Shown here: positions 2,855 through 45,972 of the stretch, piece after piece | Layout: each line of letters opens with the position of its first letter | Position numbering within the stretch: position 1 is the stretch's first letter | Source: a virus | Lineage: Duplodnaviria; Caudoviricetes | Virus record (IMG/VR): IMGVR_UViG_3300027969_004220 | Location: 32,001 to 96,000 of that record | Reading direction: 5' to 3' (one strand) | Length of the DNA: 64,000 nt | Notes under the pieces: model-generated | Databases searched by the model: none | What the model was told of the DNA's origin: nothing | The model's input: only the letters and a program-made list of their open reading frames with translations | Translations under genes and position numbers: made by a program

Positions 2855-2877
2855 TTATTTTTATTTATTTTTGAATT

Positions 2878-5622
2878 TTATAATGTTGTTATTGTTACTG
2901 TTGTTCCATTACCATAACTATTATCAGCAACTGCAATATATACAGTATATGATACTAATGCACCACTTATTGTCGTAATTGATAGTGCAGAAGTTCTTTT
3001 TATAAATGCGGTTAGTGTACTTGATACGGTTGGTGGTGGAATCGATTCTGGATAAGGAGTTACTGTTAAAGATGAAAGATCTCCTAATGAAGAAGGATAA
3101 GCAAATACCAATCTTGAACCAGCACCCCCATCATTGGAAGCAAATTTTTGTGCCTTAGTACCAAATTTATAATTTCCAAGTCCTTCCACAATACTTTGAA
3201 GAGTAACTGAATCATATGTATCAACATCTGTTTGAGTAAGACTTATCGAAGCTGATCCAATATTTGCATATCCATAGTAAAATACATTACTAAATGCTAA
3301 TGATGCACTAACTGGTGTACTATCACTTCCAGTTGCCGCAATTACTTGCGAACCAGATACAATTAAACCAGTTTTTGGTTTTGATATTGTTGTAGTATAA
3401 GTAGTACCACTAGATAATCCAGTAGTAGATAAAGTTGCACTAACTTTTGGATATGAACCTGAACTAAATGTATATGATCCAGTTACTGTAGATGGGGTTG
3501 AAAATCCAGTAGTTGCTGCAGGAATACTACTTGTTCCAGTATATTTAACTATACATCCATTAGGCACTGTTACTGAATTCGATGTACTAAATGTACCTAC
3601 TGAAAACGTAGCCATACTTGTTCCAGTACCTTTTATTACAGTCGGTCCAAATAGTGTAGTACCATCAGACTCATATATCTCCCATCTAGAAACAATTGTT
3701 GGAGTAACTAATGCAGTTGCAGCTAAGTCTATTTCAACTTGTTGATTATTTAACTTACCAACTAATCTAGCGGGGTTTTGTTGAGGTAAATCACCTTGAA
3801 AAACCAAATTATATTCAGATAAAAGTAATATTAAGGTTCTATCATATAAATAATTATCAAATACTAAGTTGTATTGTATTGAACTTGTATTAGTATTCAA
3901 ATTATATTGACCCGATAAATTATTCATTGTTATATTAGTTTGTGAAATTCCTCTAAAGTTGATATTTTCATTATAAGAATTCACTATATTTTGACTACCA
4001 ATTCCCTTACCATTAGCAGTATTGTATACATTACCCCATTGAAATGCTTTTATTGGATTATATAATCCAATATCATCTATCCAATAACTAATATTTTGTG
4101 TATTAGTACTTACTATATTTGTACCTCTCTCACTTCTATAAATTATTTTATTAGTAAATCTATCATACTTAATTTCATCATAACTAATATTATAGTTTGG
4201 AGTCGTATAAGAAAGAAGTGTCCATTCTGATAAGGCTAATGAAAAATTATCAAGTGATGCTAATGTATTAACTCCAGAGATATTACTCCAAGCTCTACCA
4301 CCCCAATAAACAACAGAACCGGTTGCGTAGGATGATGAAGGACCCGCCCATATTTTATATCCGGCAACTGTTTGATCATATTTAGGATTATAGAATTTAC
4401 CTTCTCCAACATCATTTAATATTCCTTGTGAATTTGTTGTTAGGTATATTTCTGTACCACCATATAAATCAATATCAGCATCTGTTATTCTATAAGTACT
4501 AGATGATGACAATGTTGACAATCCAGCAAATGCTGTAGCAGTTATAGTAATAACCGGTGTTCCAACTCCAGAAGACCAGCTAAGATTACCAACACCATCT
4601 GTTTTTATAACTTGCCCAGAAGTTCCATCTGATAAAGGTAGTTTATATTGATTATTAATGTCTACTTTACCACCTAAATAAACCGTATCTGCACTATCAA
4701 CTATTAAATCTTGACCACCAATAACAACTGTATTAGATAAACCAGGATCAACTGCTGCTCTAGAAGATGATATAAAAGTAATGTTAGTATTTTCAGTTCG
4801 TGTAGTAAATCCATTATCAATATCAGTAATAAAAATTCCACTATAATCACTCACCAGAGTATTCTTTGAATTTAATAAACCAATAATATTTCCAATTGAT
4901 GTTAAGTAAGTTTCATTATTACCGTTAAATTTTAACTGACCATCTCCACTTATTCCTTTTACATAACCACCATCTTTTATTATTAAATTAGGTGCATAAA
5001 CAGAGTTTGATTGTGTTCCAACAATCTGAGAACCACCAATAATAACACTATTATTAACGGTATTTGAAAATCTTGAACCATCTGATGATATAAATGCAGG
5101 AACTCTATTACCACTTGTTCTCACAGTGGTTGCTGTTGTAAACTCTAAAACATTTGTTACTCCTAATTTTAAATAAGAGTTGTTATTTTGTAATAAAAAT
5201 TGATTTGCACCATAACTTAAACTAATATAAGATGTATTCATTATTACAGATGAACTTAAACCAGTTAGTTGAATAGTATTATCATCCATAGTTAAAGTAG
5301 AACCTGTTATTGAAGATGATAATTGTACATAATTACCATAACTACCATTATTATCTAATCTTAAACTGGCTGATCCACCATTAGATCTTAGACGAGTATT
5401 TAGATCTAAGTATATAGAATTCGTACCGGTTGTTTTACCAATAGATAATGTTTGTGCAAGTGAACCTATTCCACCACCTGATCCAATTGGTGTAATAACA
5501 CCTAAATGATCTTTTTGTGTTAAAACTCCTAATGTATCATATCCAACTACGAATCCACCAATTGAAGAAGGTGTTGCCACAGTTATCATATTTACTCTAC
5601 TCTCAAAAAGAACTAATGCCAT
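2878..5622 (-). CDS. Large virion structural protein (tail fibre/baseplate-associated)
   Basis: 914 aa, Ser/Thr/Gly-rich, LPLSDGTSGQVIKTDGVGNLSW fibre-like motif; co-oriented with the fibre gene. Confidence 0.6.
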   Translation of the reverse strand: MALVLFESRVNMITVATPSSIGGFVVGYDTLGVLTQKDHLGVITPIGSGGGIGSLAQTLSIGKTTGTNSIYLDLNTRLRSNGGSASLRLDNNGSYGNYVQLSSSITGSTLTMDDNTIQLTGLSSSVIMNTSYISLSYGANQFLLQNNNSYLKLGVTNVLEFTTATTVRTSGNRVPAFISSDGSRFSNTVNNSVIIGGSQIVGTQSNSVYAPNLIIKDGGYVKGISGDGQLKFNGNNETYLTSIGNIIGLLNSKNTLVSDYSGIFITDIDNGFTTRTENTNITFISSSRAAVDPGLSNTVVIGGQDLIVDSADTVYLGGKVDINNQYKLPLSDGTSGQVIKTDGVGNLSWSSGVGTPVITITATAFAGLSTLSSSSTYRITDADIDLYGGTEIYLTTNSQGILNDVGEGKFYNPKYDQTVAGYKIWAGPSSSYATGSVVYWGGRAWSNISGVNTLASLDNFSLALSEWTLLSYTTPNYNISYDEIKYDRFTNKIIYRSERGTNIVSTNTQNISYWIDDIGLYNPIKAFQWGNVYNTANGKGIGSQNIVNSYNENINFRGISQTNITMNNLSGQYNLNTNTSSIQYNLVFDNYLYDRTLILLLSEYNLVFQGDLPQQNPARLVGKLNNQQVEIDLAATALVTPTIVSRWEIYESDGTTLFGPTVIKGTGTSMATFSVGTFSTSNSVTVPNGCIVKYTGTSSIPAATTGFSTPSTVTGSYTFSSGSYPKVSATLSTTGLSSGTTYTTTISKPKTGLIVSGSQVIAATGSDSTPVSASLAFSNVFYYGYANIGSASISLTQTDVDTYDSVTLQSIVEGLGNYKFGTKAQKFASNDGGAGSRLVFAYPSSLGDLSSLTVTPYPESIPPPTVSSTLTAFIKRTSALSITTISGALVSYTVYIAVADNSYGNGTTVTITTL

Positions 5623-6806: not shown

Positions 6807-6934
6807 AACTTTTTATTTATTTTATAAGGTATATATAAAAAATTGTCACTATATTTGTACTCAGAAAGAAAAAAAGTTCAAAAATATGAAAAGGAAGAAA
6901 AACTTTTTAATATATAGAACTATAAAACATATAT

Positions 6935-7005
6935 CGCGTTAAAGTGTAAAGGTTGCATGAGACTCTCATAAGGTCTACGGGGTGGTTCGAATCCACGATA
7001 CGCTA
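6935..7005 (+). tRNA. tRNA-Met(CAT)-like, degenerate acceptor stem
   Basis: Anticodon arm AGACT-CTCATAA-GGTCT, T-arm GTGG-TTCGAAT-CCAC; three acceptor mismatches. Confidence 0.55.
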
Positions 7006-7051
7006 CAAAAGAGATAGATAACGATTTAGATACAAGTCTCAAAGAATATAT

Positions 7052-7124
7052 CGCGGGATAGAGCAGTAGGCAGCTCGTGTGGCTCATAACCATAAGGTCG
7101 GAGGTTCGAGTCCTTCTCCCGCTA
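7052..7124 (+). tRNA. tRNA-fMet(CAT)
   Basis: CGCGGGA...TCCCGCTA with unpaired C1, loop CTCATAA, GGTTCGAGTCC. Confidence 0.9.
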
Positions 7125-7152
7125 CTAAAAGAATAAAAAAAGTTAAAAAAGA

Positions 7153-7183
7153 TTTGGTGAATTAAAAACTTATCGTATCTTTG
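7153..7183 (+). promoter_or_regulatory. Host-type promoter of attenuated tRNA array 1
   Basis: TTTG-N19-TATCTTTG. Confidence 0.8.
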
Positions 7184-7221
7184 TAGAAGAATTAAAAACA
7201 ACAATTTAAAAAATAGAAAAA

Positions 7222-7323
7222 ATGACAACAATTACTAACATAACAATAGCTATCGAAGCCATAGGCGGGTATGAAGCGGGGTATACAATACCATCGGTCA
7301 GAAGCGTTATGTGTATAAAGTAA
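7222..7323 (+). CDS. Attenuator leader peptide 1 (Ile/Ala/Glu/Gly/Tyr sensor)
   Basis: MTTITNITIAIEAIGGYEAGYTIPSVRSVMCIK*; codons 9-21 are all I/A/E/G/Y; five ATA codons. Confidence 0.8.
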   Translation: MTTITNITIAIEAIGGYEAGYTIPSVRSVMCIK

Positions 7324-7350
7324 TGAGTTGAAAAAACATTATTATACAAC

Positions 7351-7388
7351 AAACCCAATCTGACGTAAAAATCAGATTGGGTTTTTTT
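7351..7388 (+). terminator. Attenuator terminator 1
   Basis: AAACCCAATCTGA/TCAGATTGGGTTT stem plus T7; its 5' arm TCTGAC can instead pair with leader GTCAGA (7297-7302). Confidence 0.85.
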
Positions 7389-7402
7389 ATTGAATTATAT
7401 CT

Positions 7403-8199: not shown

Positions 8200-8253
8200 C
8201 CGCAGACTTTTTTGACTTTTTTATTTTAATATATATAATAAAAAAGTCTGAAA

Positions 8254-8880
8254 ATGTCAAAAAATAAAATAAAGTATCACTTTTTGTATAAAACTACAAA
8301 TTTGATAAATAGTAAGTATTATTATGGAATGCATAGTACCTATAAACTAGATGATGGTTATTTAGGATCTGGTAAAATGTTAAGATACTCAATACGTAAA
8401 TATGGTAAAGAAAATTTTAACATCGAAATTATAGAATTTTTTCCTTCAAGAGAAGATTTAGTAAACGCTGAAATGAATTTGATTACAGAAGAAATGGTAG
8501 TTGATAACAAACTATGTATGAACCTTAAAAAAGGTGGTTTAGGTGGATTTACAAAAGAACAATCTCATAAAGGTGCATTAAGGATGTTAGATATAATATG
8601 GAGTGATAGTGATTTTATAACAAGACACAACGAAAGAAAAAGTAAGCTAATCAAAGAACTATATCTAAGTGGTAAAATAAAAAGATGTGACTGGACTGGT
8701 AGAAAACATAGTAAAGATACTATAGAGAAAATGACTTTATCTAAAAAAGGACAAGGATTAGGAGAATCTAATTCACAATTCGGAACTTGCTGGATAACAA
8801 AAGATGGAGAGAATAAAAAAATAACAAAAGAAAAATTAGAAGACTATTTGATGGATGGTTGGATAAATGGAAGAAAATAA
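8254..8880 (+). CDS. GIY-YIG (Seg-like) free-standing homing endonuclease with NUMOD3 motif
   Basis: FLYKTTNLINSKYYYGMH, YLGSG, GRKHSKDTIEKM; inserted between tRNAs. Confidence 0.85.
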   Translation: MSKNKIKYHFLYKTTNLINSKYYYGMHSTYKLDDGYLGSGKMLRYSIRKYGKENFNIEIIEFFPSREDLVNAEMNLITEEMVVDNKLCMNLKKGGLGGFTKEQSHKGALRMLDIIWSDSDFITRHNERKSKLIKELYLSGKIKRCDWTGRKHSKDTIEKMTLSKKGQGLGESNSQFGTCWITKDGENKKITKEKLEDYLMDGWINGRK

Positions 8881-8881
8881 T

Positions 8882-10797: not shown

Positions 10798-10844
10798 ATT
10801 GTATATATTAAATCTTTTACTTACTTTTGTAAAAATTAAAGATT

Positions 10845-19193: not shown

Positions 19194-20786
19194 ATGAGTT
19201 TACAAAGACAAATTACTCGAAAATTAGAAAGAGCCATTGCTGATAAAGATTGGACTTCTTTACAAGGTATTCAAAAATACCTAACAAAAATTATTACAAA
19301 ACCAGACAATTTAATTCTTTGCTCTGATGCTTACAAATACTCACACCATAAATTCTATGGTGATGAAATGACCAAAATGGTTTCTTATATGGAATCTCGA
19401 GGTGGTAAATTCTCAGAAACTTTGTTCTATGGTTTACAAATCATTATCAAACAATACTTAGAAGGTATCGCTATTACCAAAGAAGAAGTTGATGAAGCAG
19501 ATGATTACTTAGCATCTAAACTAGGAGTATTCGGTAGAGACGATGTATTCGACCGTTCTAAATTTGATTACATTGTTGATAAATATGATGGTAAATTACC
19601 TATCAGTATTAAAGCAGTTCCAGAGGGAACTGTTGTAAATACAAAGAATGTACTTTTCATCATTGAAAGTTTAGACGAGAAATGTGCTTGGATAACAAAC
19701 TTCTTAGAAAGTATCTTACTTCAAGTTTGGTATCCAATTACTGTTGCCACTCTTTCAAGAGAAGTTAGAAAAATTGTAACCAATTCATTTTTAGATTCTA
19801 CTTCTTATGATGATAAAACAATCAATTTCTTAGTTGATTTTGTTTTAAATGACTTTGGTTTCAGAGGTGTATCTTCTGTACAATCAGCGAAAATTGGTGG
19901 GTCTGCACATCTTGTCAACTTCTTAGGTTCTGACACTGTAATCGCTTCTAAATTGATTAGAGACGTATATAATACTGAACGAATCTACGGATTATCAATT
20001 CCTGCAACCGAACACTCTATTATGACACTTAAAGGCGAAGAAGGAGAGTTAGAACTAATGATGCGAGTTTTAAAAACATTCCCAACTGGATTAGTTGCTT
20101 GTGTATCAGATTCATACAATATCTTTAGAGCTTGTTCTGAATATTGGGGAACTGAGTTAAGAGATTTAGTTCTTTCAAGACCAACAACACCTGGTAATCA
20201 ATTAGTTATTAGACCTGACTCTGGTCACGTTTTAAGAACTTTAAAAGAAATCTTTGATATTCTATTTGATAAGTTTGGTTATACTGTAAATGAAAAAGGT
20301 TATAAAGTTCTTCCACCACAAATTAGAGTAATTCAAGGTGATGGTGTGAATTTAGAATCAATTGGTGAAATCTATATGATGTTAAAATCAGAAGGTATCT
20401 CTCCAGAGAACTTAGCATTGGGTATGGGTGGTAAATTATTACAAGCTGATATAAATCGTGATACAAATAACTTCGCAACCAAAGCATGTTTCGCAATTGT
20501 TGATGGTCAAGAAAGAAATGTAGTTAAATCTCCTACAGAAATGGATGCAGATGGTAACATTACAAAATCTTTCAAAAAATCTAAACAAGGTCGTTTGAAA
20601 CTTGTTAAAAATGATGATGGTACTTACAGAACTGTTACATCAATGGATGCAGACTTTGATACTGTTAAAGATGAGTTAGTTGAAGTATTTAGAATGGGTA
20701 ACATCACAAAAGAGTGGAACTTTGATGAAATTAGACAAAGAGCTGCTGTTTTAGTAGAACAAGAATTAGAAGAATTGATAGCATAA
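19194..20786 (+). CDS. nadV: Nicotinamide phosphoribosyltransferase (NAMPT)
   Basis: SDAYKYSH, DFGFRGVSS, SIPATEHS, VSDSY, VIRPDSG, VIQGDG, KKSKQGRL. Confidence 0.95.
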   Translation: MSLQRQITRKLERAIADKDWTSLQGIQKYLTKIITKPDNLILCSDAYKYSHHKFYGDEMTKMVSYMESRGGKFSETLFYGLQIIIKQYLEGIAITKEEVDEADDYLASKLGVFGRDDVFDRSKFDYIVDKYDGKLPISIKAVPEGTVVNTKNVLFIIESLDEKCAWITNFLESILLQVWYPITVATLSREVRKIVTNSFLDSTSYDDKTINFLVDFVLNDFGFRGVSSVQSAKIGGSAHLVNFLGSDTVIASKLIRDVYNTERIYGLSIPATEHSIMTLKGEEGELELMMRVLKTFPTGLVACVSDSYNIFRACSEYWGTELRDLVLSRPTTPGNQLVIRPDSGHVLRTLKEIFDILFDKFGYTVNEKGYKVLPPQIRVIQGDGVNLESIGEIYMMLKSEGISPENLALGMGGKLLQADINRDTNNFATKACFAIVDGQERNVVKSPTEMDADGNITKSFKKSKQGRLKLVKNDDGTYRTVTSMDADFDTVKDELVEVFRMGNITKEWNFDEIRQRAAVLVEQELEELIA

Positions 20787-23993: not shown

Positions 23994-24647
23994 ATGGAAT
24001 TATTCATGTTTGATATAGAAACGGCCGGACAATATAAAGACTTTACAGAATTTGAAAAAAATGATGAACGTGGTTCAAACCTTTTTAAAGGCAAATACCA
24101 AAAAATGGGTTGGGAAGAAAAATACGGAAACATATACGAAGCTTATTTAGATAATGCAGGTATTGTACCAACTTATGGTAGAATAGTTTGTATCTCATTT
24201 GGTTACTTAGATAACGGTCAAGAAAGAATCTCAAGTTTCTACGGAGACGATGAAAAAGAAATTGTAGAGAAATTTAATAACCTACTTAAAAAGATTGAGA
24301 AGAAAGATTTTAATTTATCTGGATTTAGAATAGCTTATTTTGATATTCCTTGGGTAGCTCATAAGTTAGCTAAGTATGGTATTAAACCAGCTGATATAAT
24401 TACCACTTATAATAAGAAACCTTGGGAAATGAGAATCACTGATATGTCTGATGATTGGAAGTCAAAATTTGCTTGGGCATTCTCATTTGATGAGATGTGT
24501 TATGAGTTGGGAATTGAATCTCCAAAGGATAATATGAATGGTGGAGACGTACATGATGCTTACTGGGAAGGTAGAGTTGAAGAGGTAAAAATCTACTGTG
24601 AGAAAGACGTAAAAGCCTCAATTAAAGTATCTCAGGTTATTTATTAA
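23994..24647 (+). CDS. PolB-related DEDD 3'-5' exonuclease
   Basis: FDIET, GRIVCIS, FDIP, YCEKDV. Confidence 0.85.
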   Translation: MELFMFDIETAGQYKDFTEFEKNDERGSNLFKGKYQKMGWEEKYGNIYEAYLDNAGIVPTYGRIVCISFGYLDNGQERISSFYGDDEKEIVEKFNNLLKKIEKKDFNLSGFRIAYFDIPWVAHKLAKYGIKPADIITTYNKKPWEMRITDMSDDWKSKFAWAFSFDEMCYELGIESPKDNMNGGDVHDAYWEGRVEEVKIYCEKDVKASIKVSQVIY

Positions 24648-24697
24648 AAAACTTCAAAAATAAGGTTTTTTGATATATTTTTATGATATATAGTTTT

Positions 24698-25030
24698 ATG
24701 GAAAACCTCACTATCACGTACATAAAGACACATGGACAAACTTTGGAAATGTGGTCCGCAATAGATACAAAAAACAACCTTTCGGTAGGTCATATTTGTA
24801 TGAATGTAGAGAAAGACAACAGGATAAAATTCCTAGATGCTTGGGTTCATGATGATTATCGCAGAAGAGGAATTTATAGACTTCTATGGGAAACCAGATG
24901 GAAATATGTAAATGAAGAATATAAAGGTTATACTATATATGCTTGGTGTAAAGAAACATCATTACCATTACTTTTAGAGAAGGAATTCACTCCAGGTGAA
25001 ATAGTTACCTATGTTGAGAAAAAAATTTAA
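24698..25030 (+). CDS. GNAT family acetyltransferase
   Basis: WVHDDYRRRGIYRLL acetyl-CoA binding motif. Confidence 0.8.
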   Translation: MENLTITYIKTHGQTLEMWSAIDTKNNLSVGHICMNVEKDNRIKFLDAWVHDDYRRRGIYRLLWETRWKYVNEEYKGYTIYAWCKETSLPLLLEKEFTPGEIVTYVEKKI

Positions 25031-25059
25031 ACTTTTTATAAAATAAAAATATAAGTTGC

Positions 25060-25245
25060 ATGATGAGACCCTTAAAATCAGTAGCTAAGTACTACTCAAA
25101 AGGATTTTTTTTAGCATACGGTTTATTAGCAGTAATAAATCTACCAGAGTTTAACTTCTCTACATTAGCGGAACAGTCACTTATTTTTGGTATAGGTATG
25201 GCACTTCTAATTCATGCATTTGAAGACTTCTATAAAACAAAATAA
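25060..25245 (+). CDS. Small membrane protein
   Basis: Two hydrophobic segments. Confidence 0.55.
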   Translation: MMRPLKSVAKYYSKGFFLAYGLLAVINLPEFNFSTLAEQSLIFGIGMALLIHAFEDFYKTK

Positions 25246-25248
25246 ATT

Positions 25249-25428
25249 ATGGCAAATAAAGACAGAAACTTTATAATTAGAATCTCTGAAAAACTATTAG
25301 AAGATTTTCAAGAGTTCTGTGATGATAATTCAATGAATGCTTCTAAAAGAATTAGAAAGTATATTGAGAATGATGTAGAAGCTTGGAAGAAAAGAAAATT
25401 ACAACAACAACAAAATAATCAAAAATAA
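25249..25428 (+). CDS. Ribbon-helix-helix-like DNA-binding protein (not in ORF track)
   Basis: MANKDRNFIIRISEKLLEDFQEFCDDNSMNASKRIRKYIE..., 59 aa. Confidence 0.65.
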   Translation: MANKDRNFIIRISEKLLEDFQEFCDDNSMNASKRIRKYIENDVEAWKKRKLQQQQNNQK

Positions 25429-25537
25429 ATTAGGTACTACAAAATTTATTCGTATCTTTGTCATCTAATAAAAATAAAGATATGTTTATACTAGTCGGGT
25501 ACCTTATTTGGGGCAATAAAGAATAAAAACAAAAAAA

Positions 25538-25621
25538 TTAGGTAGATAAGTAAACTTTTATTACTTTTGTACTATAAAAATAACAAATAAACAAAAAGAG
25601 AGAATAAACTTTTAATATATA
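25538..25621 (+). promoter_or_regulatory. Conserved dual-promoter module of attenuated array 2
   Basis: TTAG-N20-TACTTTTG, then AAACAAAAAG and TAATATATA; near-identical modules at 26717 and 35441. Confidence 0.75.
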
Positions 25622-25626
25622 CAATA

Positions 25627-25731
25627 ATGAAAACAACTAATCTAAATATTAACTTAACGCTGAATGTCTTATGTCTAAGACAAAGACCGGGTTTTGCCTT
25701 ATTTAGAGCAACTGATTTTGATGGTGTGTAA
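25627..25731 (+). CDS. Attenuator leader peptide 2 (Leu/Arg sensor)
   Basis: MKTTNLNINLTLNVLCLRQRPGFALFRATDFDGV*; six Leu codons (CTA, TTA, CTG) and three AGA. Confidence 0.75.
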   Translation: MKTTNLNINLTLNVLCLRQRPGFALFRATDFDGV

Positions 25732-25759
25732 TCATTAAATTCAAACTAAATATACAAAC

Positions 25760-25792
25760 AAAACCCGAAATTTAAAAGTTTCGGGTTTTTTT
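25760..25792 (+). terminator. Attenuator terminator 2
   Basis: AAAACCCGAAA/TTTCGGGTTTT plus T-run; leader CGGGTTTTG (25688-25696) is complementary to CAAAACCCG (25759-25767). Confidence 0.85.
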
Positions 25793-25811
25793 GTGGAAAA
25801 AAATAAATAAT

Positions 25812-25885
25812 GGCCCCGTAGCTCAGCTGGATAGAGCAACTCACTTCTAATGAGTAGGTCACAGGTTCGAATCCTGTCGGGGTCA
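25812..25885 (+). tRNA. tRNA-Arg(TCT)
   Basis: ACTCA-CTTCTAA-TGAGT. Confidence 0.95.
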
Positions 25886-25900
25886 CAAAAATAATCACCT

Positions 25901-25970
25901 GTCGGGGTGGTGGAATGGTAGACACGCAGCACTTAAAATGCTGTGCTCCAGAAGAGTCCCTTTCCCGATA
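25901..25970 (+). pseudogene. tRNA-Leu(TAA) lacking the 5' half of the T-arm
   Basis: D and anticodon arms intact (CAGCA-CTTAAAA-TGCTG); no GGTTCGA. Confidence 0.65.
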
Positions 25971-25978
25971 CAAAAAAT

Positions 25979-26065
25979 GCGTCTGTGGTGAAATTGGTAG
26001 TACACGCTGGGTTTAAGCCCCAGTGGTCAGGAATGATCGTGAGGGTTCGACTCCCTCCAGACGTA
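25979..26065 (+). tRNA. tRNA-Leu(TAA)
   Basis: CTGGG-TTTAAGC-CCCAG, long variable arm. Confidence 0.92.
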
Positions 26066-26074
26066 CAAAAATAT

Positions 26075-26155
26075 GCCTCAGTAGTCCCAGTTGTCTTCTA
26101 AACAACTACGGGTAATTGGAAACTGAAAATGTAGGTTCGAATCCTATCTGGGGTA
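26075..26155 (+). tRNA. Atypical tRNA-Arg(TCT): no D-arm, D-loop-like insert 3' of the anticodon arm
   Basis: GCCTCAG/CTGGGGT, GTTGT-CTTCTAA-ACAAC, GTAGG-TTCGAAT-CCTAT. Confidence 0.6.
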
Positions 26156-26166
26156 CTAATACACAA

Positions 26167-26249
26167 GCCGAGGTGGTGGAATGGTAGACACGCTGGTCTA
26201 AGAAGCCAGTGTCCGAAAGGACGTGCGGGTTCGAGTCCCGCTCTCGGTA
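26167..26249 (+). tRNA. tRNA-Leu(AAG)
   Basis: CTGGT-CTAAGAA-GCCAG, long variable arm. Confidence 0.88.
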
Positions 26250-26251
26250 CA

Positions 26252-26518
26252 ATGAAAGAAATAAATTATATACAGTACACATCATATACATTATTATCAA
26301 GTGGTGGTGTATTTAAGGTAAATTCAGCAATGCCTTTACCGAATTTAGATAAACACTTGAATGAGAGTATAAACTTAATTATGTTTGTAGTTCATAATAT
26401 AAAGTGTAATGATAAAGAAGTAATGTTTTATAATAGAGATCTATTTAGATTGACATATGGATCAAAAGAATGTTCTGAAATGATTATGAAAATGAAACAT
26501 TCACATATATTAGAATAA
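26252..26518 (+). CDS. Hypothetical protein inside tRNA array 2
   Basis: 88 aa, exactly fills the gap between two tRNA-Leu genes. Confidence 0.5.
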
Positions 26519-26519
26519 T

Positions 26520-26601
26520 GTCGGAGTGATGAAATGGTAGACGTGCTTGGCTCAAGACCGAGTGTCCAAAAGACGTGTGGGTTCGAATCCCACCTTCGAT
26601 A
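26520..26601 (+). tRNA. tRNA-Leu(CAA)
   Basis: CTTGG-CTCAAGA-CCGAG. Confidence 0.92.
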
Positions 26602-26609
26602 CAAAATAT

Positions 26610-26696
26610 ACCCCTATGAGCAAATAGGCAAAGCTTGCTGGCTTAGACCCAGTGGAAAACAATGATACATTCTCGGTTCGAGTCCGAGTAGGGGTA
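26610..26696 (+). tRNA. tRNA-Leu(TAG)
   Basis: GCTGG-CTTAGAC-CCAGT. Confidence 0.88.
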
Positions 26697-26716
26697 CAAA
26701 GAAAAATTAAAAAAGA

Positions 26717-26797
26717 TTAGGTAGATTAAAAAACTAATAGTATATTTGTACTATAAATAAAGATAAACAAAAAGGGACAATAAAAATTTAATATATA
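26717..26797 (+). promoter_or_regulatory. Conserved dual-promoter module of attenuated array 3
   Basis: TTAG-N20-TATATTTG ... AAACAAAAAG ... TAATATATA. Confidence 0.75.
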
Positions 26798-26802
26798 ATA
26801 TA

Positions 26803-26892
26803 ATGAAAACAAATACTGTAAATATTAATGTGATTACGATTACGAATTGTGTGAATAGCACGACTTCGGGTAATGAGATATGTATGGTATAA
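26803..26892 (+). CDS. Attenuator leader peptide 3 (Asn/Ile/Val/Cys/Thr sensor)
   Basis: MKTNTVNINVITITNCVNSTTSGNEICMV*; codons 3-18 are all T/N/V/I/C. Confidence 0.8.
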   Translation: MKTNTVNINVITITNCVNSTTSGNEICMV

Positions 26893-26919
26893 AGTTAAAG
26901 TATATTATAATAAATTCAT

Positions 26920-26951
26920 AAAAACCCGAACTCAAAAAGTTTGGGTTTTTT
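26920..26951 (+). terminator. Attenuator terminator 3
   Basis: AAAAACCCGAACT/AGTTTGGGTTTTT; leader TTCGGGT (26865-26871) is complementary to ACCCGAA (26924-26930). Confidence 0.85.
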
Positions 26952-26970
26952 CATGTCAAAAAATAAATAT

Positions 26971-27041
26971 TCTTCTATAGTGAAATGGTATCACGTCTGA
27001 CTGTTAATCAGTTATTCCAGGTTCGAGCCCTGGTGGAAGAG
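26971..27041 (+). tRNA. tRNA-Asn(GTT)
   Basis: CTGA-CTGTTAA-TCAG. Confidence 0.9.
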
Positions 27042-27047
27042 CAAAAT

Positions 27048-27135
27048 TACTGGGTTGCCATAGCCAGGTCGAATGGTTCGGACTGTTAATCCGATGAGCA
27101 TCGCTCCACCGTGGGTTCGAATCCCACCCCAGTAG
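27048..27135 (+). tRNA. tRNA-Asn(GTT) with long variable arm
   Basis: TCGGA-CTGTTAA-TCCGA, variable stem GAGC/GCTC. Confidence 0.8.
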
Positions 27136-27144
27136 CAAATATAT

Positions 27145-27225
27145 TGGCAAATACCAGCCCAACCTGATAAGTTGGAGAACTGTAGTGGTAAGTTGAAAAC
27201 GTGGGTTCGAATCCCACTTTGCCAA
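27145..27225 (+). tRNA. Atypical tRNA-Ile(GAT): no D-arm, D-arm-like hairpin 3' of the anticodon arm
   Basis: TGGCAAA/TTTGCCA, CCAAC-CTGATAA-GTTGG, AACT-GTAGTGGTA-AGTT, GTGGG-TTCGAAT-CCCAC. Confidence 0.6.
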
Positions 27226-27349
27226 CAAAAAAAATAAAATAATAATTATGAAAATGAAAGAGAATTTATTAAATAGTTCGGTTAGTAGTTAAAAAAAGTG
27301 ATAAAAGTGAGTTATAATTTTTTATATATACAATAAATAAAAAACTATA

Positions 27350-27886
27350 ATGGAAAAAGATAAAATGATAGAACTAATCGAGTTAGGTTACTCACAAAGG
27401 AATCTTGCGGAAGAACTAAAAACATCACAATCTAATGTTAAATATTGGTTAAAAAAATTTGAAATAAGTACAAAATATAAAAAAAATAATATAGATAAAC
27501 ATATAATTGATGGTGGTAAAAATTGTCCTAAATGTAATGAGTTAAAAGATGTGGATGACTTTTATAAAAGAAGTAGTATAAATAGAAACGGAACCGCGGG
27601 TTATTGTAAAAAATGTAGTAATATTTATCATGGTGCTAGATTAAAGAAAGTTAAATTAAAAATGATTTTATATAAAGGTGGTAAATGTTGTGATTGTGAA
27701 CTAAACCATGAAAATACACACTATTGTGTTTTTGATTTTCATCACTTAGATCCAAATACTAAAGACCCAAACTTTAATAAAATTAAATATCAAAAATGGG
27801 AAAAAATTAAAGAAGAAATTGATAAATGTGTATTATTGTGTGCGAATTGTCACCGTTTAAGACACTCTGTTATCAGTGGATGGTAA
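27350..27886 (+). CDS. HNH homing endonuclease with N-terminal HTH and Zn-binding motifs
   Basis: CPKC..CKKC; CCDC..FDFHHLDP..KCVLLCANCHRLRH. Confidence 0.85.
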   Translation: MEKDKMIELIELGYSQRNLAEELKTSQSNVKYWLKKFEISTKYKKNNIDKHIIDGGKNCPKCNELKDVDDFYKRSSINRNGTAGYCKKCSNIYHGARLKKVKLKMILYKGGKCCDCELNHENTHYCVFDFHHLDPNTKDPNFNKIKYQKWEKIKEEIDKCVLLCANCHRLRHSVISGW

Positions 27887-27898
27887 ATAAATAAAAAT

Positions 27899-27981
27899 AG
27901 GTCTATGGTGTAATGGCAACATCCTTCTTTTACATGGAAGAGACGTGAAGTATAATCTCGGTTCGAGTCCGAGTAGACCTA
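27899..27981 (+). tRNA. tRNA-Val(TAC), extended variable region
   Basis: CTTCT-TTTACAT-GGAAG. Confidence 0.8.
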
Positions 27982-27987
27982 CATAAT

Positions 27988-28063
27988 GGTTCCTTAGCTC
28001 AGTTGGTTCAGTAGCGTCTGTTTTACACGCAGAAGGTCATAGGTTCGAATCCTATAGGAATCA
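27988..28063 (+). tRNA. tRNA-Val(TAC)
   Basis: TCTGT-TTTACAC-GCAGA. Confidence 0.92.
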
Positions 28064-28069
28064 CAATAT

Positions 28070-28143
28070 TGGTAGTTAGCTCAACTGGTTAGAGCACTTC
28101 GCTGATACCGAAGAGGTTATGGGTTCGACTCCCTTACTACCAA
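28070..28143 (+). tRNA. tRNA-Ile(GAT)
   Basis: CTTCG-CTGATAC-CGAAG. Confidence 0.9.
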
Positions 28144-28151
28144 CAAAAAAT

Positions 28152-28239
28152 GGCATAGTGTCTGAGTGGTCGAAAGATGCGGTCTGCAAAACCGTAATGA
28201 TTAAGTTCATCATCGTAGGTTCAAATCCTACCTATGCTT
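28152..28239 (+). tRNA. tRNA-Cys(GCA) with long variable arm
   Basis: GCGGT-CTGCAAA-ACCGT, U73. Confidence 0.85.
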
Positions 28240-28245
28240 CTAAAT

Positions 28246-28325
28246 GGTTGGTCACTGTAAATGGCTTCACAGTGGGACGGTACGTGGAATTTATTCCTAA
28301 GTGGGTTCGAGACCCACATCAACCT
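28246..28325 (+). ncRNA. tRNA-like RNA without a recognisable anticodon arm
   Basis: GGTTGGT/ATCAACC acceptor, T-arm GTGGG-TTCGAGA-CCCAC, 6-bp CACTGT/ACAGTG hairpin. Confidence 0.5.
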
Positions 28326-28332
28326 CAATAAT

Positions 28333-28406
28333 GGCGCGGTGGCCGAGTGGCACGTAGGCGGTGGATTGCAAACTCACACACACTGGTTCGAATCCAGTCC
28401 GCGCCT
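28333..28406 (+). tRNA. tRNA-Cys(GCA)
   Basis: GGCGCGG/CCGCGCC, loop TTGCAAA, U73. Confidence 0.88.
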
Positions 28407-28413
28407 CGAGACG

Positions 28414-28468
28414 AGACTGTTACTAATTCATAGGGGCCCATACGATGTAAGTGTCTGCGTAGAATTAG
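28414..28468 (+). ncRNA. Repeated pseudoknot-like spacer RNA, copy 1
   Basis: AGACYGTTACTAATTCATAGGG..GTCTGCGTAGAATTAG, also at 36082. Confidence 0.55.
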
Positions 28469-28473
28469 AAAAT

Positions 28474-28546
28474 GCCGATATAGCTCAATAGGTAGAGTGC
28501 CAACTTGGTAGGTTGGAGGTTAAGGGTTCGATTCCCTTTATCGGAT
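28474..28546 (+). tRNA. tRNA-Thr(GGT)
   Basis: CCAAC-TTGGTAG-GTTGG. Confidence 0.88.
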
Positions 28547-28554
28547 CAAATAAT

Positions 28555-28635
28555 GCTGGTGTTGCGTAGTGGCCGATCGCACCTACCTTGTAAGTAGGAA
28601 TTCCAACGTCGCAGGTTCGAATCCTGTCACTAGCT
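28555..28635 (+). tRNA. tRNA-Thr(TGT)
   Basis: CCTAC-CTTGTAA-GTAGG. Confidence 0.88.
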
Positions 28636-28639
28636 CGAC

Positions 28640-28673
28640 AAAAAAGACTTCTTTTAATTAAGAAGTCTTTTTT
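28640..28673 (+). terminator. Terminator ending tRNA array 3
   Basis: AAAAAAGACTTCTT/AAGAAGTCTTTTTT. Confidence 0.8.
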
Positions 28674-28722
28674 ATTTTAAACTAAATCCATATCTTTGTA
28701 TAGAATAATAAATACTACTATT

Positions 28723-29175
28723 ATGAAAGATATAAAACCTCGTTGCTTCGTGGATATGGATGGCGTCCTATGTGATTTTTTCGGAGCATTCTCAGATGTT
28801 CGTAGAAAAGACCCAAACTTTAAATTTCCTCAATCCAGAATAGGGTTCTTCAAAAATCTTGAACCAATACCAGATGCAATTGAGTCTTTTAATAAATTAA
28901 AAGAACATTATGACGTTTGGATTTTAACACGTCCTTCATTTAAAAACATTAGTTGTTTTAACGAGAAAGCTGAATGGGTATTAGAACATTTAGGTTTTGA
29001 TATATTAGAAAAAACGATTATGTGTGGTGATAAATCTTTGGTGAAAGGTGATTACCTTATTGATGATAATGGTCAAAATGGCCAACCTGAATTTGAAGGA
29101 GAATGGATTGAATTTGCTTCAGAATCCTTTCCGGATTGGACTGCGGTTATTGATTATTTAATACCGACTATCTAA
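28723..29175 (+). CDS. 5'(3')-deoxyribonucleotidase (NT5C, HAD)
   Basis: FVDMDGVLCDF, EKAEWV, KSLVKGDYLIDD. Confidence 0.9.
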   Translation: MKDIKPRCFVDMDGVLCDFFGAFSDVRRKDPNFKFPQSRIGFFKNLEPIPDAIESFNKLKEHYDVWILTRPSFKNISCFNEKAEWVLEHLGFDILEKTIMCGDKSLVKGDYLIDDNGQNGQPEFEGEWIEFASESFPDWTAVIDYLIPTI

Positions 29176-32121: not shown

Positions 32122-32221
32122 AATTTATATATTAAAAAAATAATTCTATAATCTTTTGTTATATTAAATAATATGTGTATATTTGCATGTTATTAATTAT
32201 AATAATAAAAAAATCGCTAAA

Positions 32222-33474: not shown

Positions 33475-33522
33475 GTTTTCTTATAATTGTAATTTAATAT
33501 ATAAGAAAATTGATTACATTAA

Positions 33523-35440: not shown

Positions 35441-35523
35441 TTAGGTAGATTGAAAACTTTATATTACTTTTGTAGTATAAAATCAAAGAAAAACAAAAAG
35501 GAACAATAAAAGTTTAATATATA
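35441..35523 (+). promoter_or_regulatory. Conserved dual-promoter module of attenuated array 4
   Basis: TTAG-N20-TACTTTTG ... AAACAAAAAG ... TAATATATA. Confidence 0.75.
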
Positions 35524-35528
35524 GTAAT

Positions 35529-35627
35529 ATGAAAAATGTAAATGTAAATATCGTAGTTATGCCGCAGCCGATGCAGGATCAGGATCGTTTCACGAACCAG
35601 ACTAACTATGTATTTATATCACATTAA
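35529..35627 (+). CDS. Attenuator leader peptide 4 (Met/Pro/Gln/Asp sensor)
   Basis: MKNVNVNIVVMPQPMQDQDRFTNQTNYVFISH*; nine consecutive M/P/Q/D codons. Confidence 0.85.
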   Translation: MKNVNVNIVVMPQPMQDQDRFTNQTNYVFISH

Positions 35628-35650
35628 GAAATTACGTGTATAAAAATTAC

Positions 35651-35685
35651 AAATCCGTTAGTCTTTGAGACTAACGGATTTTTTT
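35651..35685 (+). terminator. Attenuator terminator 4
   Basis: AAATCCGTTAGTCT-TTG-AGACTAACGGATTT plus T-run; leader AGACTAAC (35599-35606) is complementary to GTTAGTCT (35657-35664). Confidence 0.88.
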
Positions 35686-35704
35686 ATGGAATAAAATTAA
35701 ATAT

Positions 35705-45894: not shown

Positions 45895-45972
45895 AATAAT
45901 TTATTTCTTTTTATAATGTATATATTAAAACAAAAATCACATTTTCTATATAAAAAGAAAATAATTTTTGTA

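What the first reader, a model, noticed from the sequence alone, without database searches (positions are those of the whole stretch)
25627..25811. Attenuator 2: Leu/Arg(AGA) leader before an array of only Leu and Arg(UCU) tRNAs
The leader has six Leu codons (CTA, TTA, CTG) and three AGA. The array is Arg(UCU) x2 plus Leu(UAA x2, AAG, CAA, UAG). A long alternative helix (CGGGTTTTG/CAAAACCCG, TATTTAG/CTAAATA) excludes the terminator. The codon run is looser than in the other three leaders, and the second AGA abuts the antiterminator.
Basis: partly seen in the sequence, partly recalled or inferred. Interest (0 to 1): 0.82.

Follow-up and report, generated by a model that had tools for sequence, protein, structure and literature searches.

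The report
Leader-peptide switch controlling phage tRNA genes
A 34-codon mini-gene rich in leucine and arginine codons, followed by a transcription stop signal that an alternative RNA fold can override, sits directly in front of a giant phage's leucine and arginine tRNA genes, which suggests the phage makes these tRNAs only when ribosomes run short of them.

Summary
The region 25627-25811 contains a 34-codon ORF with 6 Leu and 3 AGA codons, a 13-bp terminator with a U7 tail, and a mutually exclusive antiterminator. A promoter lies upstream. Downstream are seven tRNA or tRNA-like genes that read only Leu and Arg(UCU) codons.

The unit is one of six in this 105.6-kb fragment of a huge phage. Its nearest relatives are 634-642-kb phages predicted to infect Bacteroidetes. 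Within this genome, the true pairing of leader amino acids with arrays scores best of all 720 possible pairings.

The same architecture recurs in more than 20 related viral contigs and in published huge-phage genomes that carry no annotation. Leader composition tracks array content there. A Leu-only leader precedes a Leu-only array, and a Leu/Ser/Cys leader precedes a Leu/Ser/Cys array.

All three helices (1:2, 2:3, 3:4) are kept in 14 homologues, with compensatory changes.

The best reading is a classical ribosome-mediated attenuator that controls tRNA genes rather than biosynthetic genes. Nine literature searches found no description of this. Leu sensing is well placed: five Leu codons lie upstream of the antiterminator arm. 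Arg sensing in this copy is doubtful, because two of the three AGA codons lie under or inside the arm.

There is no expression evidence. I rate it a new variant of a known kind, of high interest.

The parts
25538..25569 (+). Promoter-like region. A 10-base box (25538-25547) is shared exactly by four units of the genome. An element at 25562-25569 fits the -7 consensus of Bacteroidota promoters; that consensus is recalled, not tested.
   Evidence: Exact copies of the box lie at 25538, 26717 and 35441 in the window and at a fourth place outside it. I read the alignment of the upstream regions by eye.
25611..25621 (+). An 11-base AT-rich box 5 nt upstream of the leader start codon. It also occurs upstream of ordinary genes and may be a second, phage-type promoter element.
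   Evidence: One search found 28 matches at up to 1 mismatch, against 18.6 +/- 4.2 expected. Exact copies precede the leaders at 25627, 26803 and 35529 and the genes starting at 8256, 32121(-) and 33523.
25627..25731 (+). Leader ORF of 34 codons. Leu is at codons 6, 10, 12, 15, 17 and 25. Arg(AGA) is at codons 18, 20 and 27.
   Evidence: The ORF is retained in 14 of 14 homologues, and its stop codon always falls in the apical hairpin.
25641..25662 (+). Region 1, the anti-antiterminator arm. Bases 25641-25648 pair with 25700-25707, and 25656-25662 pair with 25688-25693.
   Evidence: The fold is -16.1 kcal/mol. The 7-bp core is 94.9% paired in 14 sequences, with one C-G (8) to U-A (6) swap.
25666..25687 (+). 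Local hairpin inside the leader that contains AGA-18 and AGA-20. It may act as a pause hairpin (inferred).
   Evidence: Folds.
25688..25707 (+). Region 2, the 5' arm of the antiterminator, encoded by codons 21-27.
25713..25742 (+). Apical hairpin of the antiterminator. It encloses the stop codon at 25729-25731.
25747..25767 (+). Region 3, the 3' arm of the antiterminator. It overlaps the 5' arm of the terminator.
25760..25792 (+). Intrinsic terminator: a 13-bp stem (25760-25772 with 25777-25789), a 4-nt loop and a run of seven U (25786-25792).
   Evidence: The hairpin is -16.3 kcal/mol. It is 92.2% paired in 14 homologues, with 4 pairs changed on both sides. The scan flagged it on the minus strand only.
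25812..26697 (+). The regulated tRNA array, in order: Arg(UCU), Leu(UAA)-like, Leu(UAA), Arg(UCU)-like, Leu(AAG), an 88-codon ORF (26252-26518), Leu(CAA), Leu(UAG).

Best explanation
This is a ribosome-mediated (leader-peptide) transcription attenuator that gates transcription into a phage tRNA array.

Transcription starts at the promoter near 25540-25570 and runs into the 34-codon leader.

- **Smooth translation.** The ribosome covers region 2 (25688-25707), or sits at the stop codon between regions 2 and 3. Region 3 then pairs with region 4, and RNA polymerase terminates at the U-run 25786-25792, 19 nt before the first tRNA.
- **No translation.** Region 1 (25641-25662) traps region 2, and the terminator forms again.
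- **Stalled translation.** The ribosome stalls for lack of usable Leu-tRNA at codons 6, 10, 12, 15 or 17 (CTA, TTA, CTG), or perhaps for lack of Arg-tRNA(UCU) at codon 18. Region 1 is then covered while region 2 stays free. Region 2 pairs with region 3, and polymerase reads through into the Arg(UCU) and Leu tRNA genes.

The result would be negative feedback. The phage makes these tRNAs when the codons they read are decoded slowly.

Shown here: the sequence anatomy, its conservation and covariation, and the clade-wide match between leaders and arrays. Inferred: translation of the leader, codon-specific stalling, the kinetic order of folding and regulated read-through.
For: **Anatomy.**
- The ORF, helices and terminator are as described.
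- Only 19 nt separate the U-run from the first tRNA, so the array must be transcribed through the terminator.

**Within this genome.**
- The genome holds six promoter-leader-terminator-array units.
- The true pairing of leader residues with array amino acids is the single best of all 720 pairings.

**Across relatives.**
- In 39 units from related contigs, 0.40 of leader residues match the array behind them, against 0.21 +/- 0.018 when arrays are permuted; 0 of 10,000 permutations reach the observed value. The units are not independent, and two probably unrelated rows are included.
- The match extends to codons (62 rows with near-duplicates). Leaders before Arg(tct) arrays use AGA for 24 of 28 Arg codons. 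Leaders before Arg(acg) arrays use CGN for 10 of 16. Leaders before Ile(tat) arrays use ATA for 16 of 21 Ile codons. Leaders before Ile(gat) arrays use ATT for 19 of 27.
- Matching codons cluster upstream of the antiterminator arm: 408 of 772 (53%) upstream, against 82 of 443 (19%) from the arm to the stop. This used 39 of 59 units. For this unit the counts are 7 of 19 against 2 of 14.

**Helices in 14 homologues.**
- Anchored without gaps on the invariant G and C triplets, the base just 5' of the triplet pairs in 13 of 14 sequences through three pair types.
- Antiterminator basal helix: 77% paired, 20 cells changed on both sides against 11.2 +/- 2.5 in shuffles (0 of 500 reach it), covariation 0.164 against 0.084.
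- Terminator: 92.2% paired, covariation 0.372 against 0.118.
- Helix 1:2: 94.9% paired, with a C-G to U-A swap.
- All 14 fold into 1:2, 2:3 and 3:4, with the stop codon in the apical hairpin.

**System-level co-variation in more distant huge phages.**
- In LR756501.1, a 22-codon leader with 7 Leu, using all six Leu codons, precedes a Leu-only array.
- In LR756504.1, a Leu/Ser/Cys leader precedes a Leu/Ser/Cys array.
- Where the Tyr/Glu and Ile/Gly/Ala tRNAs are split into two arrays, the leader is split in the same way.

**Codon rarity.** CTG makes up 0.09% of this phage's codons, yet it is kept in the leader.
Against: **No functional data.**
- Contigs from four RNA libraries do not cover the leader and cannot show 3' ends.

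**Thermodynamic modelling is ambivalent.**
- With the full transcript, the antiterminator reaches P = 0.64-0.73 only for stalls at codons 8-12. It is 0.2-0.3 for codons 13-17 and 0 for the AGA codons under a +12-nt footprint.
- With all upstream RNA masked, it never exceeds 0.21.
- Before region 4 is made, helix 2:3 wins even without a ribosome, at P = 0.99. The off state therefore relies on an unshown kinetic order in which 1:2 forms first.

**Weak points in this copy.**
- AGA-20, TTA-25 and AGA-27 cannot act as sensors in this model.
- Taken raw, the leader holds more residues of the neighbouring Asn/Ile/Val/Cys/Thr array (0.36) than of its own (0.27).
- The second helix is not conserved.
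- Two of the seven tRNAs are atypical and may be pseudogenes.

**Limits of the comparative tests.**
- One covariation measure, the number of pairs with a change on both sides, does not exceed shuffles. The tool warns that related sequences can beat shuffles without any structure.
- In other unit types, my test found no arm inside the ORF. In this genome's Tyr/Glu/Ile/Gly/Ala unit, 39 of 50 shuffles did as well. In its Ser/Arg unit, 31 of 50 did as well.
- In the more distant phages, some arrays showed no unit: 2 of 5 fetched pieces of LR756501.1 and 3 of 4 of LR756500.1.

**Leader translation is unverified.** Translation initiation in a host group that mostly lacks Shine-Dalgarno pairing (recalled) has not been checked.
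Confidence: 0.8

Rival explanations
1. The element is a translation-coupled switch without codon specificity. It reports only whether ribosomes are translating at all (general translation capacity, or inhibition by the host or by the phage itself). The Leu/Arg bias would have no sensing role.
For: The structural logic of 1:2, 2:3 and 3:4 works with any stall. Much of this leader's sensing zone is Asn, Thr, Ile and Val codons that its own array does not serve.
Against: Leader composition follows array content in every lineage looked at, down to synonymous codons. Matching codons also cluster upstream of the arm. A non-specific switch would not need any of this.
Confidence: 0.08
2. The terminator is constitutive and leaky, and simply damps tRNA expression or ends a small leader transcript. 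The short ORF and its codon bias would be a by-product, for example of shared ancestry among duplicated units.
For: There is no expression evidence. At equilibrium the terminator is favoured, at P = 0.94 without a ribosome. The units are clearly paralogous, with shared promoters and shared N-terminal codons.
Against: Shared ancestry predicts similar leaders. It does not predict leaders that diverge in step with their arrays. The antiterminator arm co-varies with four different terminator stems. The ORF stays open in 14 of 14 homologues of an AT-rich genome.
Confidence: 0.07
3. The element is an RNA that binds tRNA directly, in the manner of a T-box, and reads uncharged tRNA through codon-like specifiers without translation.
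For: It regulates translation-related genes, and a terminator and antiterminator compete, as in T-boxes.
Against: No T-box match appears at Rfam gathering scores, or at E up to 1 in 25400-26260. Many in-frame cognate codons are present rather than one specifier. The ORF and its frame are conserved, and Leu is kept through synonymous changes.
Confidence: 0.03
4. The ORF encodes a functional micro-protein, and the hairpin is its ordinary terminator.
For: The ORF is conserved in length class and in its N-terminal residues.
Against: The peptide sequence changes with the tRNA content behind it. The conserved N-terminal codons coincide with the region-1 RNA arm. The tRNAs directly behind it have no promoter of their own.
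Confidence: 0.02

Closest known systems
Leader-peptide attenuators of amino-acid biosynthetic operons (trp, his, leu, thr, ilv of enterobacteria; recalled textbook systems)
   Same: Both have a short ORF enriched in cognate codons, four pairing regions (1:2, 2:3, 3:4) and an intrinsic terminator. In both, a stalled ribosome selects the antiterminator.
   Different: The regulated genes here are tRNA genes, not biosynthetic enzymes. The signal would therefore feed back on tRNA supply, not on amino-acid supply. One leader mixes codons for several amino acids to match a mixed array. The host is a phage of Bacteroidota-type hosts. There is no sequence membership: Rfam Thr_leader scores 27.1 bits against a gathering score of 55, and Trp_leader 22 against 41.
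The pheST attenuator of E. coli, a leader peptide that controls a tRNA synthetase operon (recalled)
   Same: Attenuation by a leader peptide controls a component of the translation apparatus that serves the same codons as those in the leader.
   Different: That system controls the charging enzyme. This one controls the tRNA genes themselves, and it does so in parallel for six or more arrays in one viral genome.
T-box riboswitches
   Same: Both use terminator/antiterminator competition that responds to the state of a specific tRNA, and both regulate translation-related genes.
   Different: T-boxes bind uncharged tRNA directly and need no translation. Here a translated ORF is the likely sensor, and no T-box model matches.
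tRNA gene clusters of large phages such as T4, T5 and the huge phages of Al-Shayeb et al. 2020
   Same: These are arrays of phage tRNA genes interrupted by homing-endonuclease genes. They are thought to serve codon usage or to replace host tRNAs lost to defence nucleases (the abstract of PMC12409363, seen in the listing; passages of PMC11025619).
   Different: I found no description of regulation of such arrays by leader peptides. The main text of PMC7162821 contains none of the words 'attenuat', 'leader' or 'terminator'.

Membership tests
Ribosome-mediated (leader-peptide) transcription attenuators | A short ORF just downstream of a promoter, retained among relatives | tested here: met
   The ORF is 25627-25731. 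An ORF is present in 14 of 14 homologues.
Ribosome-mediated (leader-peptide) transcription attenuators | Enrichment of codons cognate to the regulated function, placed upstream of the antiterminator arm | tested here: met
   Leu plus AGA make 9 of 33 codons (p = 0.0066). In this unit 7 of 19 codons match upstream of the arm, against 2 of 14 downstream. Family-wide the figures are 53% against 19%. Two of the three AGA codons are badly placed.
Ribosome-mediated (leader-peptide) transcription attenuators | An intrinsic terminator between the leader and the regulated genes | tested here: met
   A 13-bp stem plus U7 at -16.3 kcal/mol. It is 92.2% paired with compensatory changes. The simple scan flagged it on the minus strand only.
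Ribosome-mediated (leader-peptide) transcription attenuators | An antiterminator that shares the 5' arm of the terminator | tested here: met
   The fold is -24.7 kcal/mol. None of 50 codon shuffles is as stable. Covariation appears.
Ribosome-mediated (leader-peptide) transcription attenuators | An anti-antiterminator (1:2) that overlaps the sensing codons | tested here: met
   The fold is -16.1 kcal/mol. It is 94.9% paired with a C-G to U-A swap.
Ribosome-mediated (leader-peptide) transcription attenuators | Read-through rises when the cognate charged tRNA is scarce | not testable with these tools
   This needs reporters or 3'-end mapping. The RNA contigs were uninformative.
Ribosome-mediated (leader-peptide) transcription attenuators | The regulated genes encode amino-acid biosynthesis enzymes or aminoacyl-tRNA synthetases, as in all cases I recall | tested here: not met
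   The genes downstream are tRNA genes. This is the reason for rating it a new variant.
Rfam leader families (Thr_leader RF00506, Trp_leader RF00513 and others) | A covariance-model score at or above the gathering score | tested here: not met
   Only tRNA passes the gathering score in the window. Thr_leader scores 27.1 against 55 and Trp_leader 22 against 41, and both matches lie mainly on the terminator hairpin.
T-box riboswitch | A match to the T-box covariance model | tested here: not met
   No T-box match is listed at gathering scores or at E up to 1 in 25400-26260.

The most novel reading that the evidence does not exclude
Huge phages may run a codon-resolved, closed-loop tRNA supply. Each tRNA array would be guarded by a sentinel mini-ORF written in the very codons those tRNAs read. 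The virus would then detect which decoding steps are failing and transcribe only the matching tRNA set. The failure could come from its own AT-rich codon demand, from host shut-off, or from host immune nucleases that cut particular tRNAs. This would be the first case of tRNA genes under leader-peptide attenuation, and a built-in sensor for tRNA-targeting defence.
Probability: 0.3. Interest if true: 0.95.

Novelty: new variant of a known kind. Interest (0 to 1): 0.86.

Why it matters
Why large phages carry dozens of tRNA genes, and when they use them, is an open question. The usual answers are codon usage and replacement of tRNAs destroyed by host defence.

If these units work as read here, the phage genome itself says which codons each array is meant to rescue, and that the supply is demand-driven. 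That makes the question directly testable with reporters and 3'-end mapping.

It would also extend a textbook mechanism to a new class of target, because the sensor and the product would be the same kind of molecule. It would supply compact, natural, codon-specific sensor parts. Finally, it would give a simple annotation rule (a short ORF plus a terminator within about 30 nt of a tRNA array) for huge-phage genomes that are deposited without annotation.

Tried and rejected
**Searches that gave little.**
- The first pattern scan, built on the promoter box and run over viral contigs, was too unspecific: more than 119 mostly unrelated loci.
- The scan with the N-terminal codon pattern returned 94 loci, of which about 9 were relevant.
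- DNA searches of the phage collection found no homologue of the leader. The near search hit only tRNA pieces, and the distant search with 25537-25811 found nothing.

**Expression evidence.**
- I asked for sequencing runs and laid the contigs of four RNA libraries on the region.
- A few exact pieces of this phage occur in one lake metatranscriptome, but none covers the leader.
- Contigs cannot show ends, and DNA carry-over cannot be excluded. This is therefore no evidence either way.

**Equilibrium folding with ribosome masks.** The two states are nearly iso-energetic, so equilibrium cannot decide a kinetic switch. I use these calls only to map which codons leave the arm free.

**Generalising the in-ORF antiterminator arm.** The cognate arm was the best or tied in only 13 of 59 units. 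Several unit types, including short Gln-only leaders and Ser/Arg leaders, show no arm inside the ORF. Their arms may lie after the stop codon; I did not pursue this.

**Distant huge phages.**
- I did not run an enlarged permutation test that included the units of the four more distant genomes. Their concordance is described but not tested statistically.
- Reading the Lak phage units under table 11 is tentative. Those phages are described as alternatively coded in the listing.

**Other.**
- Supplementary files of papers were not seen. Supplementary tables of PMC7162821 might hold tRNA annotations.

Full report
**What is there.**
- The window is bases 32001-96000 of a 105,621-base viral record that CheckV rates 38% complete.
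- Its genes are phage-like: a nicotinamide phosphoribosyl transferase, a peptidase and an HNH endonuclease.
- By tblastn of a 735-residue protein, the nearest public genomes are two unannotated 'uncultured phage' records of 634,780 and 642,428 bases, at 62.9% and 58.4% identity.
- Al-Shayeb et al. 2020 (PMC7162821; passages seen in find mode) state that their five genomes longer than 634 kb belong to the Mahaphage clade and are predicted to replicate in Bacteroidetes. I infer from the record lengths, not from an accession table, that these two records are among them.
- The window carries 31 ARAGORN tRNAs and 33 Rfam tRNA matches, grouped in four blocks.

**The observation.**
- The fold energies are -44.9 kcal/mol for the whole region (z = -5.2), -16.3 for the terminator alone and -24.7 for the alternative helix.
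- All seven downstream tRNA or tRNA-like genes read Leu or Arg(UCU). Two of them are found only by Rfam at 31.8 and 38.1 bits, and each lacks a normal arm.
- Taken alone the codon bias is modest but real. Leu plus AGA make 9 of 33 codons against 10.7% phage-wide (p = 0.0066). The rare CTA and CTG make 3 of 33 against 1.2% (p = 0.007).
- The arm's complementarity to the terminator is -14.5 kcal/mol, against -6.6 +/- 2.1 in codon shuffles; 0 of 50 reach it.

Bases 25641-25648, which are codons 5-8 of the leader, pair with 25700-25707, and 25656-25662 pair with 25688-25693. This 1:2 structure is -16.1 kcal/mol. The same segment of region 2 therefore has two alternative partners, one upstream and one downstream. 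That is the classical four-region design.

**It is not alone.**
- The same promoter box occurs four times in the record.
- The record holds six units of promoter, short ORF, terminator and tRNA array. Four lie in the window, with leaders at 7222, 25627, 26803 and 35529. Two lie upstream of it.
- Each leader is rich in the amino acids of its own array:

| Leader residues | tRNA array behind it |
|---|---|
| Ile(ATA), Glu, Ala, Gly, Tyr | Tyr, Glu, Ile(UAU), Gly, Ala |
| Asn, Thr, Val, Ile, Cys | Asn, Ile(GAU), Val, Cys, Thr |
| Pro, Gln, Asp | Gln, Asp, Pro |
| Phe, Lys, Trp, His | Lys, Phe, His |
| Ser, Arg | Arg(ACG), Ser |

- Of the 720 ways to pair the six leaders with the six arrays, the true one scores highest.
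- One tRNA pair (Met-like, about 6933-7125) has the promoter but no leader.

**Relatives.**
- Pattern scans of viral contigs, followed by a script that combines ARAGORN, a T-run, a hairpin and a short ORF, found 39 non-redundant units in the first sweep and more later.
- These units lie in at least 21 IMG/VR contigs, some of 385 and 476 kb.
- The fraction of leader residues that match the array behind them is 0.40, against 0.21 +/- 0.018 for permuted arrays; 0 of 10,000 permutations reach it. Homologous units are not independent, and two rows (L173, L194) that are probably unrelated were left in.
- The match extends to synonymous codons: AGA before Arg(UCU) arrays, CGN before Arg(ACG) arrays, ATA before Ile(UAU) arrays and ATT before Ile(GAU) arrays.
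- It is positional as well. Upstream of the antiterminator arm 53% of codons match, against 19% from the arm to the stop (39 of 59 units used).

**Published huge phages.**
- In the two nearest genomes, 8 of the 10 fetched tRNA-bearing pieces carry such units.
- Leu tRNAs keep different company in different lineages, and the leader follows each time:

| Lineage | Leader | Array |
|---|---|---|
| This phage's close relatives | Leu and Arg(AGA) codons | Leu with Arg(UCU) |
| The two nearest genomes and several contigs | Also carries Asn, Met, Thr and Val codons | Fused with Asn, Val, Thr, Ile and Met |
| LR756501.1 (735 kb) | 7 Leu in 22 codons, using all six Leu codons | Leu only |
| LR756504.1 (636 kb) | Alternating Leu, Ser and Cys | Leu with Ser and Cys |

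  The calls for this table are 49, 75, 76 and 85.
- Where the Tyr/Glu and Ile/Gly/Ala tRNAs lie in two arrays, there are two leaders with exactly those compositions.
- The units are not universal. Two of five fetched pieces of LR756501.1 and three of four of LR756500.1 showed none. The two candidates in a Lak phage are tentative.

**Structure conservation in the 14 homologues of this unit.**
- Four different terminator stems occur, and the leader's arm changes with them.
- Anchored without gaps on the invariant G and C triplets, the base just 5' of the triplet pairs in 13 of 14 sequences through three pair types. The terminator pairs in 14 of 14 at the same positions.
- On a MAFFT alignment that was not fitted to any structure, the three helices score as follows:

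| Helix | Cells paired | Cells changed on both sides | Covariation (observed against shuffled) |
|---|---|---|---|
| Antiterminator basal helix | 77% | 20 against 11.2 +/- 2.5 (0 of 500 reach it) | 0.164 against 0.084 |
| Terminator | 92.2% | 27 against 11.1 | 0.372 against 0.118 |
| Helix 1:2 | 94.9% | one C-G (8) to U-A (6) swap | 0.194 against 0.127 |

- For the antiterminator helix, the slid controls score 0.051-0.140.
- The measure 'pairs with a change on both sides' does not beat the shuffles in any of the three. The tool warns that related sequences can beat shuffles without any structure.
It is a feature of close relatives only.
- Each of the 14 sequences folds on its own into 1:2, 2:3 and 3:4. 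The stop codon always lies in the apical hairpin between regions 2 and 3.
- The conserved N-terminal codons of these leaders coincide with the region-1 arm.

**How it most likely works.**
- I masked a ribosome footprint at each codon. A stall with the A site at codons up to 17 (+12 nt) or 18 (+9 nt) leaves region 2 free to pair with region 3. From codon 19-20 onward the arm is covered.
- Five of the six Leu codons therefore qualify as sensors, and AGA-18 is borderline. AGA-20, TTA-25 and AGA-27 do not qualify. They seem fixed by the RNA structures they belong to.
- In two close relatives, a pair of AGA codons sits at codons 8-9, well inside the sensing zone. Arg sensing is thus plausible for the family but weak in this copy.
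- Equilibrium probabilities do not decide the switch. Without a ribosome the full transcript favours the terminator (P = 0.94). Before region 4 exists, 2:3 is favoured even without a ribosome (P = 0.99).
- As in the trp attenuator (recalled), the outcome must therefore depend on the order of folding and on the position of the ribosome. That a ribosome at the stop codon sterically prevents closure of 2:3 around it is my inference.

**Comparison with known systems, and novelty.**
- In mechanism this is a textbook leader-peptide attenuator. By sequence it belongs to no Rfam leader family and is not a T-box.
- What differs is the target. The regulated genes are tRNA genes, in a virus, multiplexed over six or more arrays, with mixed-codon leaders.
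- Nine full-text searches found no paper that links leader peptides or attenuators with phage tRNA arrays or huge phages.
- In the listings, no listed paper on tRNA arrays, huge phages or phage tRNAs contains the attenuator or leader-peptide terms. The one listed exception is a broad synthetic-biology review (PMC12857756) that I did not read.
- The library lacks most subscription journals, and supplements were closed, so prior description cannot be excluded.
- Work on tRNA-cleaving defence systems notes that some viruses carry tRNAs to counter them (abstract of PMC12409363, seen in the listing). A demand-driven switch would fit that setting, but nothing here ties the unit to defence.

**Verdict.** It is a new variant of a known kind. 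Confidence in the attenuator reading is 0.8. It is somewhat lower for Leu-specific sensing and about 0.4 for Arg sensing in this copy.

Noticed in passing
window 7152-7402, 26717-26970 and 35441-35704; L001 1508-1765; G000:C1:24177-24318: The same phage record holds five further units of promoter, leader ORF and terminator in front of tRNA arrays. Each leader is rich in the amino acids of its own array.
   Followed up: yes
window 6830-7125: Two Met-type tRNA genes lie behind a similar promoter and the AT-rich box, with no leader ORF and no terminator. This is the only array here without a switch.
   Followed up: partly
window 25611-25621, 26787-26797, 35513-35523, 6906-6916, 8225-8235, 33493-33503, 32126-32136(-), 45919-45929(-), 10802-10812(-): An 11-base AT-rich box lies 5-30 nt upstream of both leaders and ordinary genes. 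It has 28 matches at up to 1 mismatch, against 18.6 +/- 4.2 expected. It may be a phage-specific promoter element. If it is, transcripts of the leaders would have almost no 5' untranslated region.
   Followed up: no
window 27350-27886; window 8256-8881; L001 about 2310-3034: Endonuclease-type genes sit inside tRNA arrays. The first matches HNH endonuclease families. The other two were read by eye only and not searched.
   Followed up: partly
window 26252-26518: An 88-codon ORF without any PHROG match splits the Leu/Arg array between Leu(AAG) and Leu(CAA).
   Followed up: no
window 25901-25970 and 26075-26155; also 27048-27136, 27133-27226 and 28152-28240: Several tRNA genes are atypical: a missing T-arm, a truncated D-arm, or lengths of 88-94 nt with long inserts. 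They could be pseudogenes, tRNAs with unusual arms, or genes that carry introns.
   Followed up: partly
window 26167-26250: A tRNA-Leu carries an AAG anticodon (A at position 34). This is unusual for bacterial-type Leu tRNAs, as far as I recall. No CTT or CTC codon occurs in this leader.
   Followed up: no
window 25431-25520: A second promoter-like stretch and a tiny ORF lie just upstream of the unit's promoter.
   Followed up: no
window 24000-29000: DNA runs labelled freshwater, lake, river and estuary metagenomes hold 30-38% of the sampled words of this stretch; I did not lay them. One RNA-library contig covers 25533-25636 with 6 differences and then continues into what looks like a relative's Phe/Lys/His-type leader.
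   Followed up: partly
window 19194-20786: A nicotinamide phosphoribosyl transferase gene (PHROG 448, E = 1.3e-136). It is an auxiliary metabolic gene.
   Followed up: no
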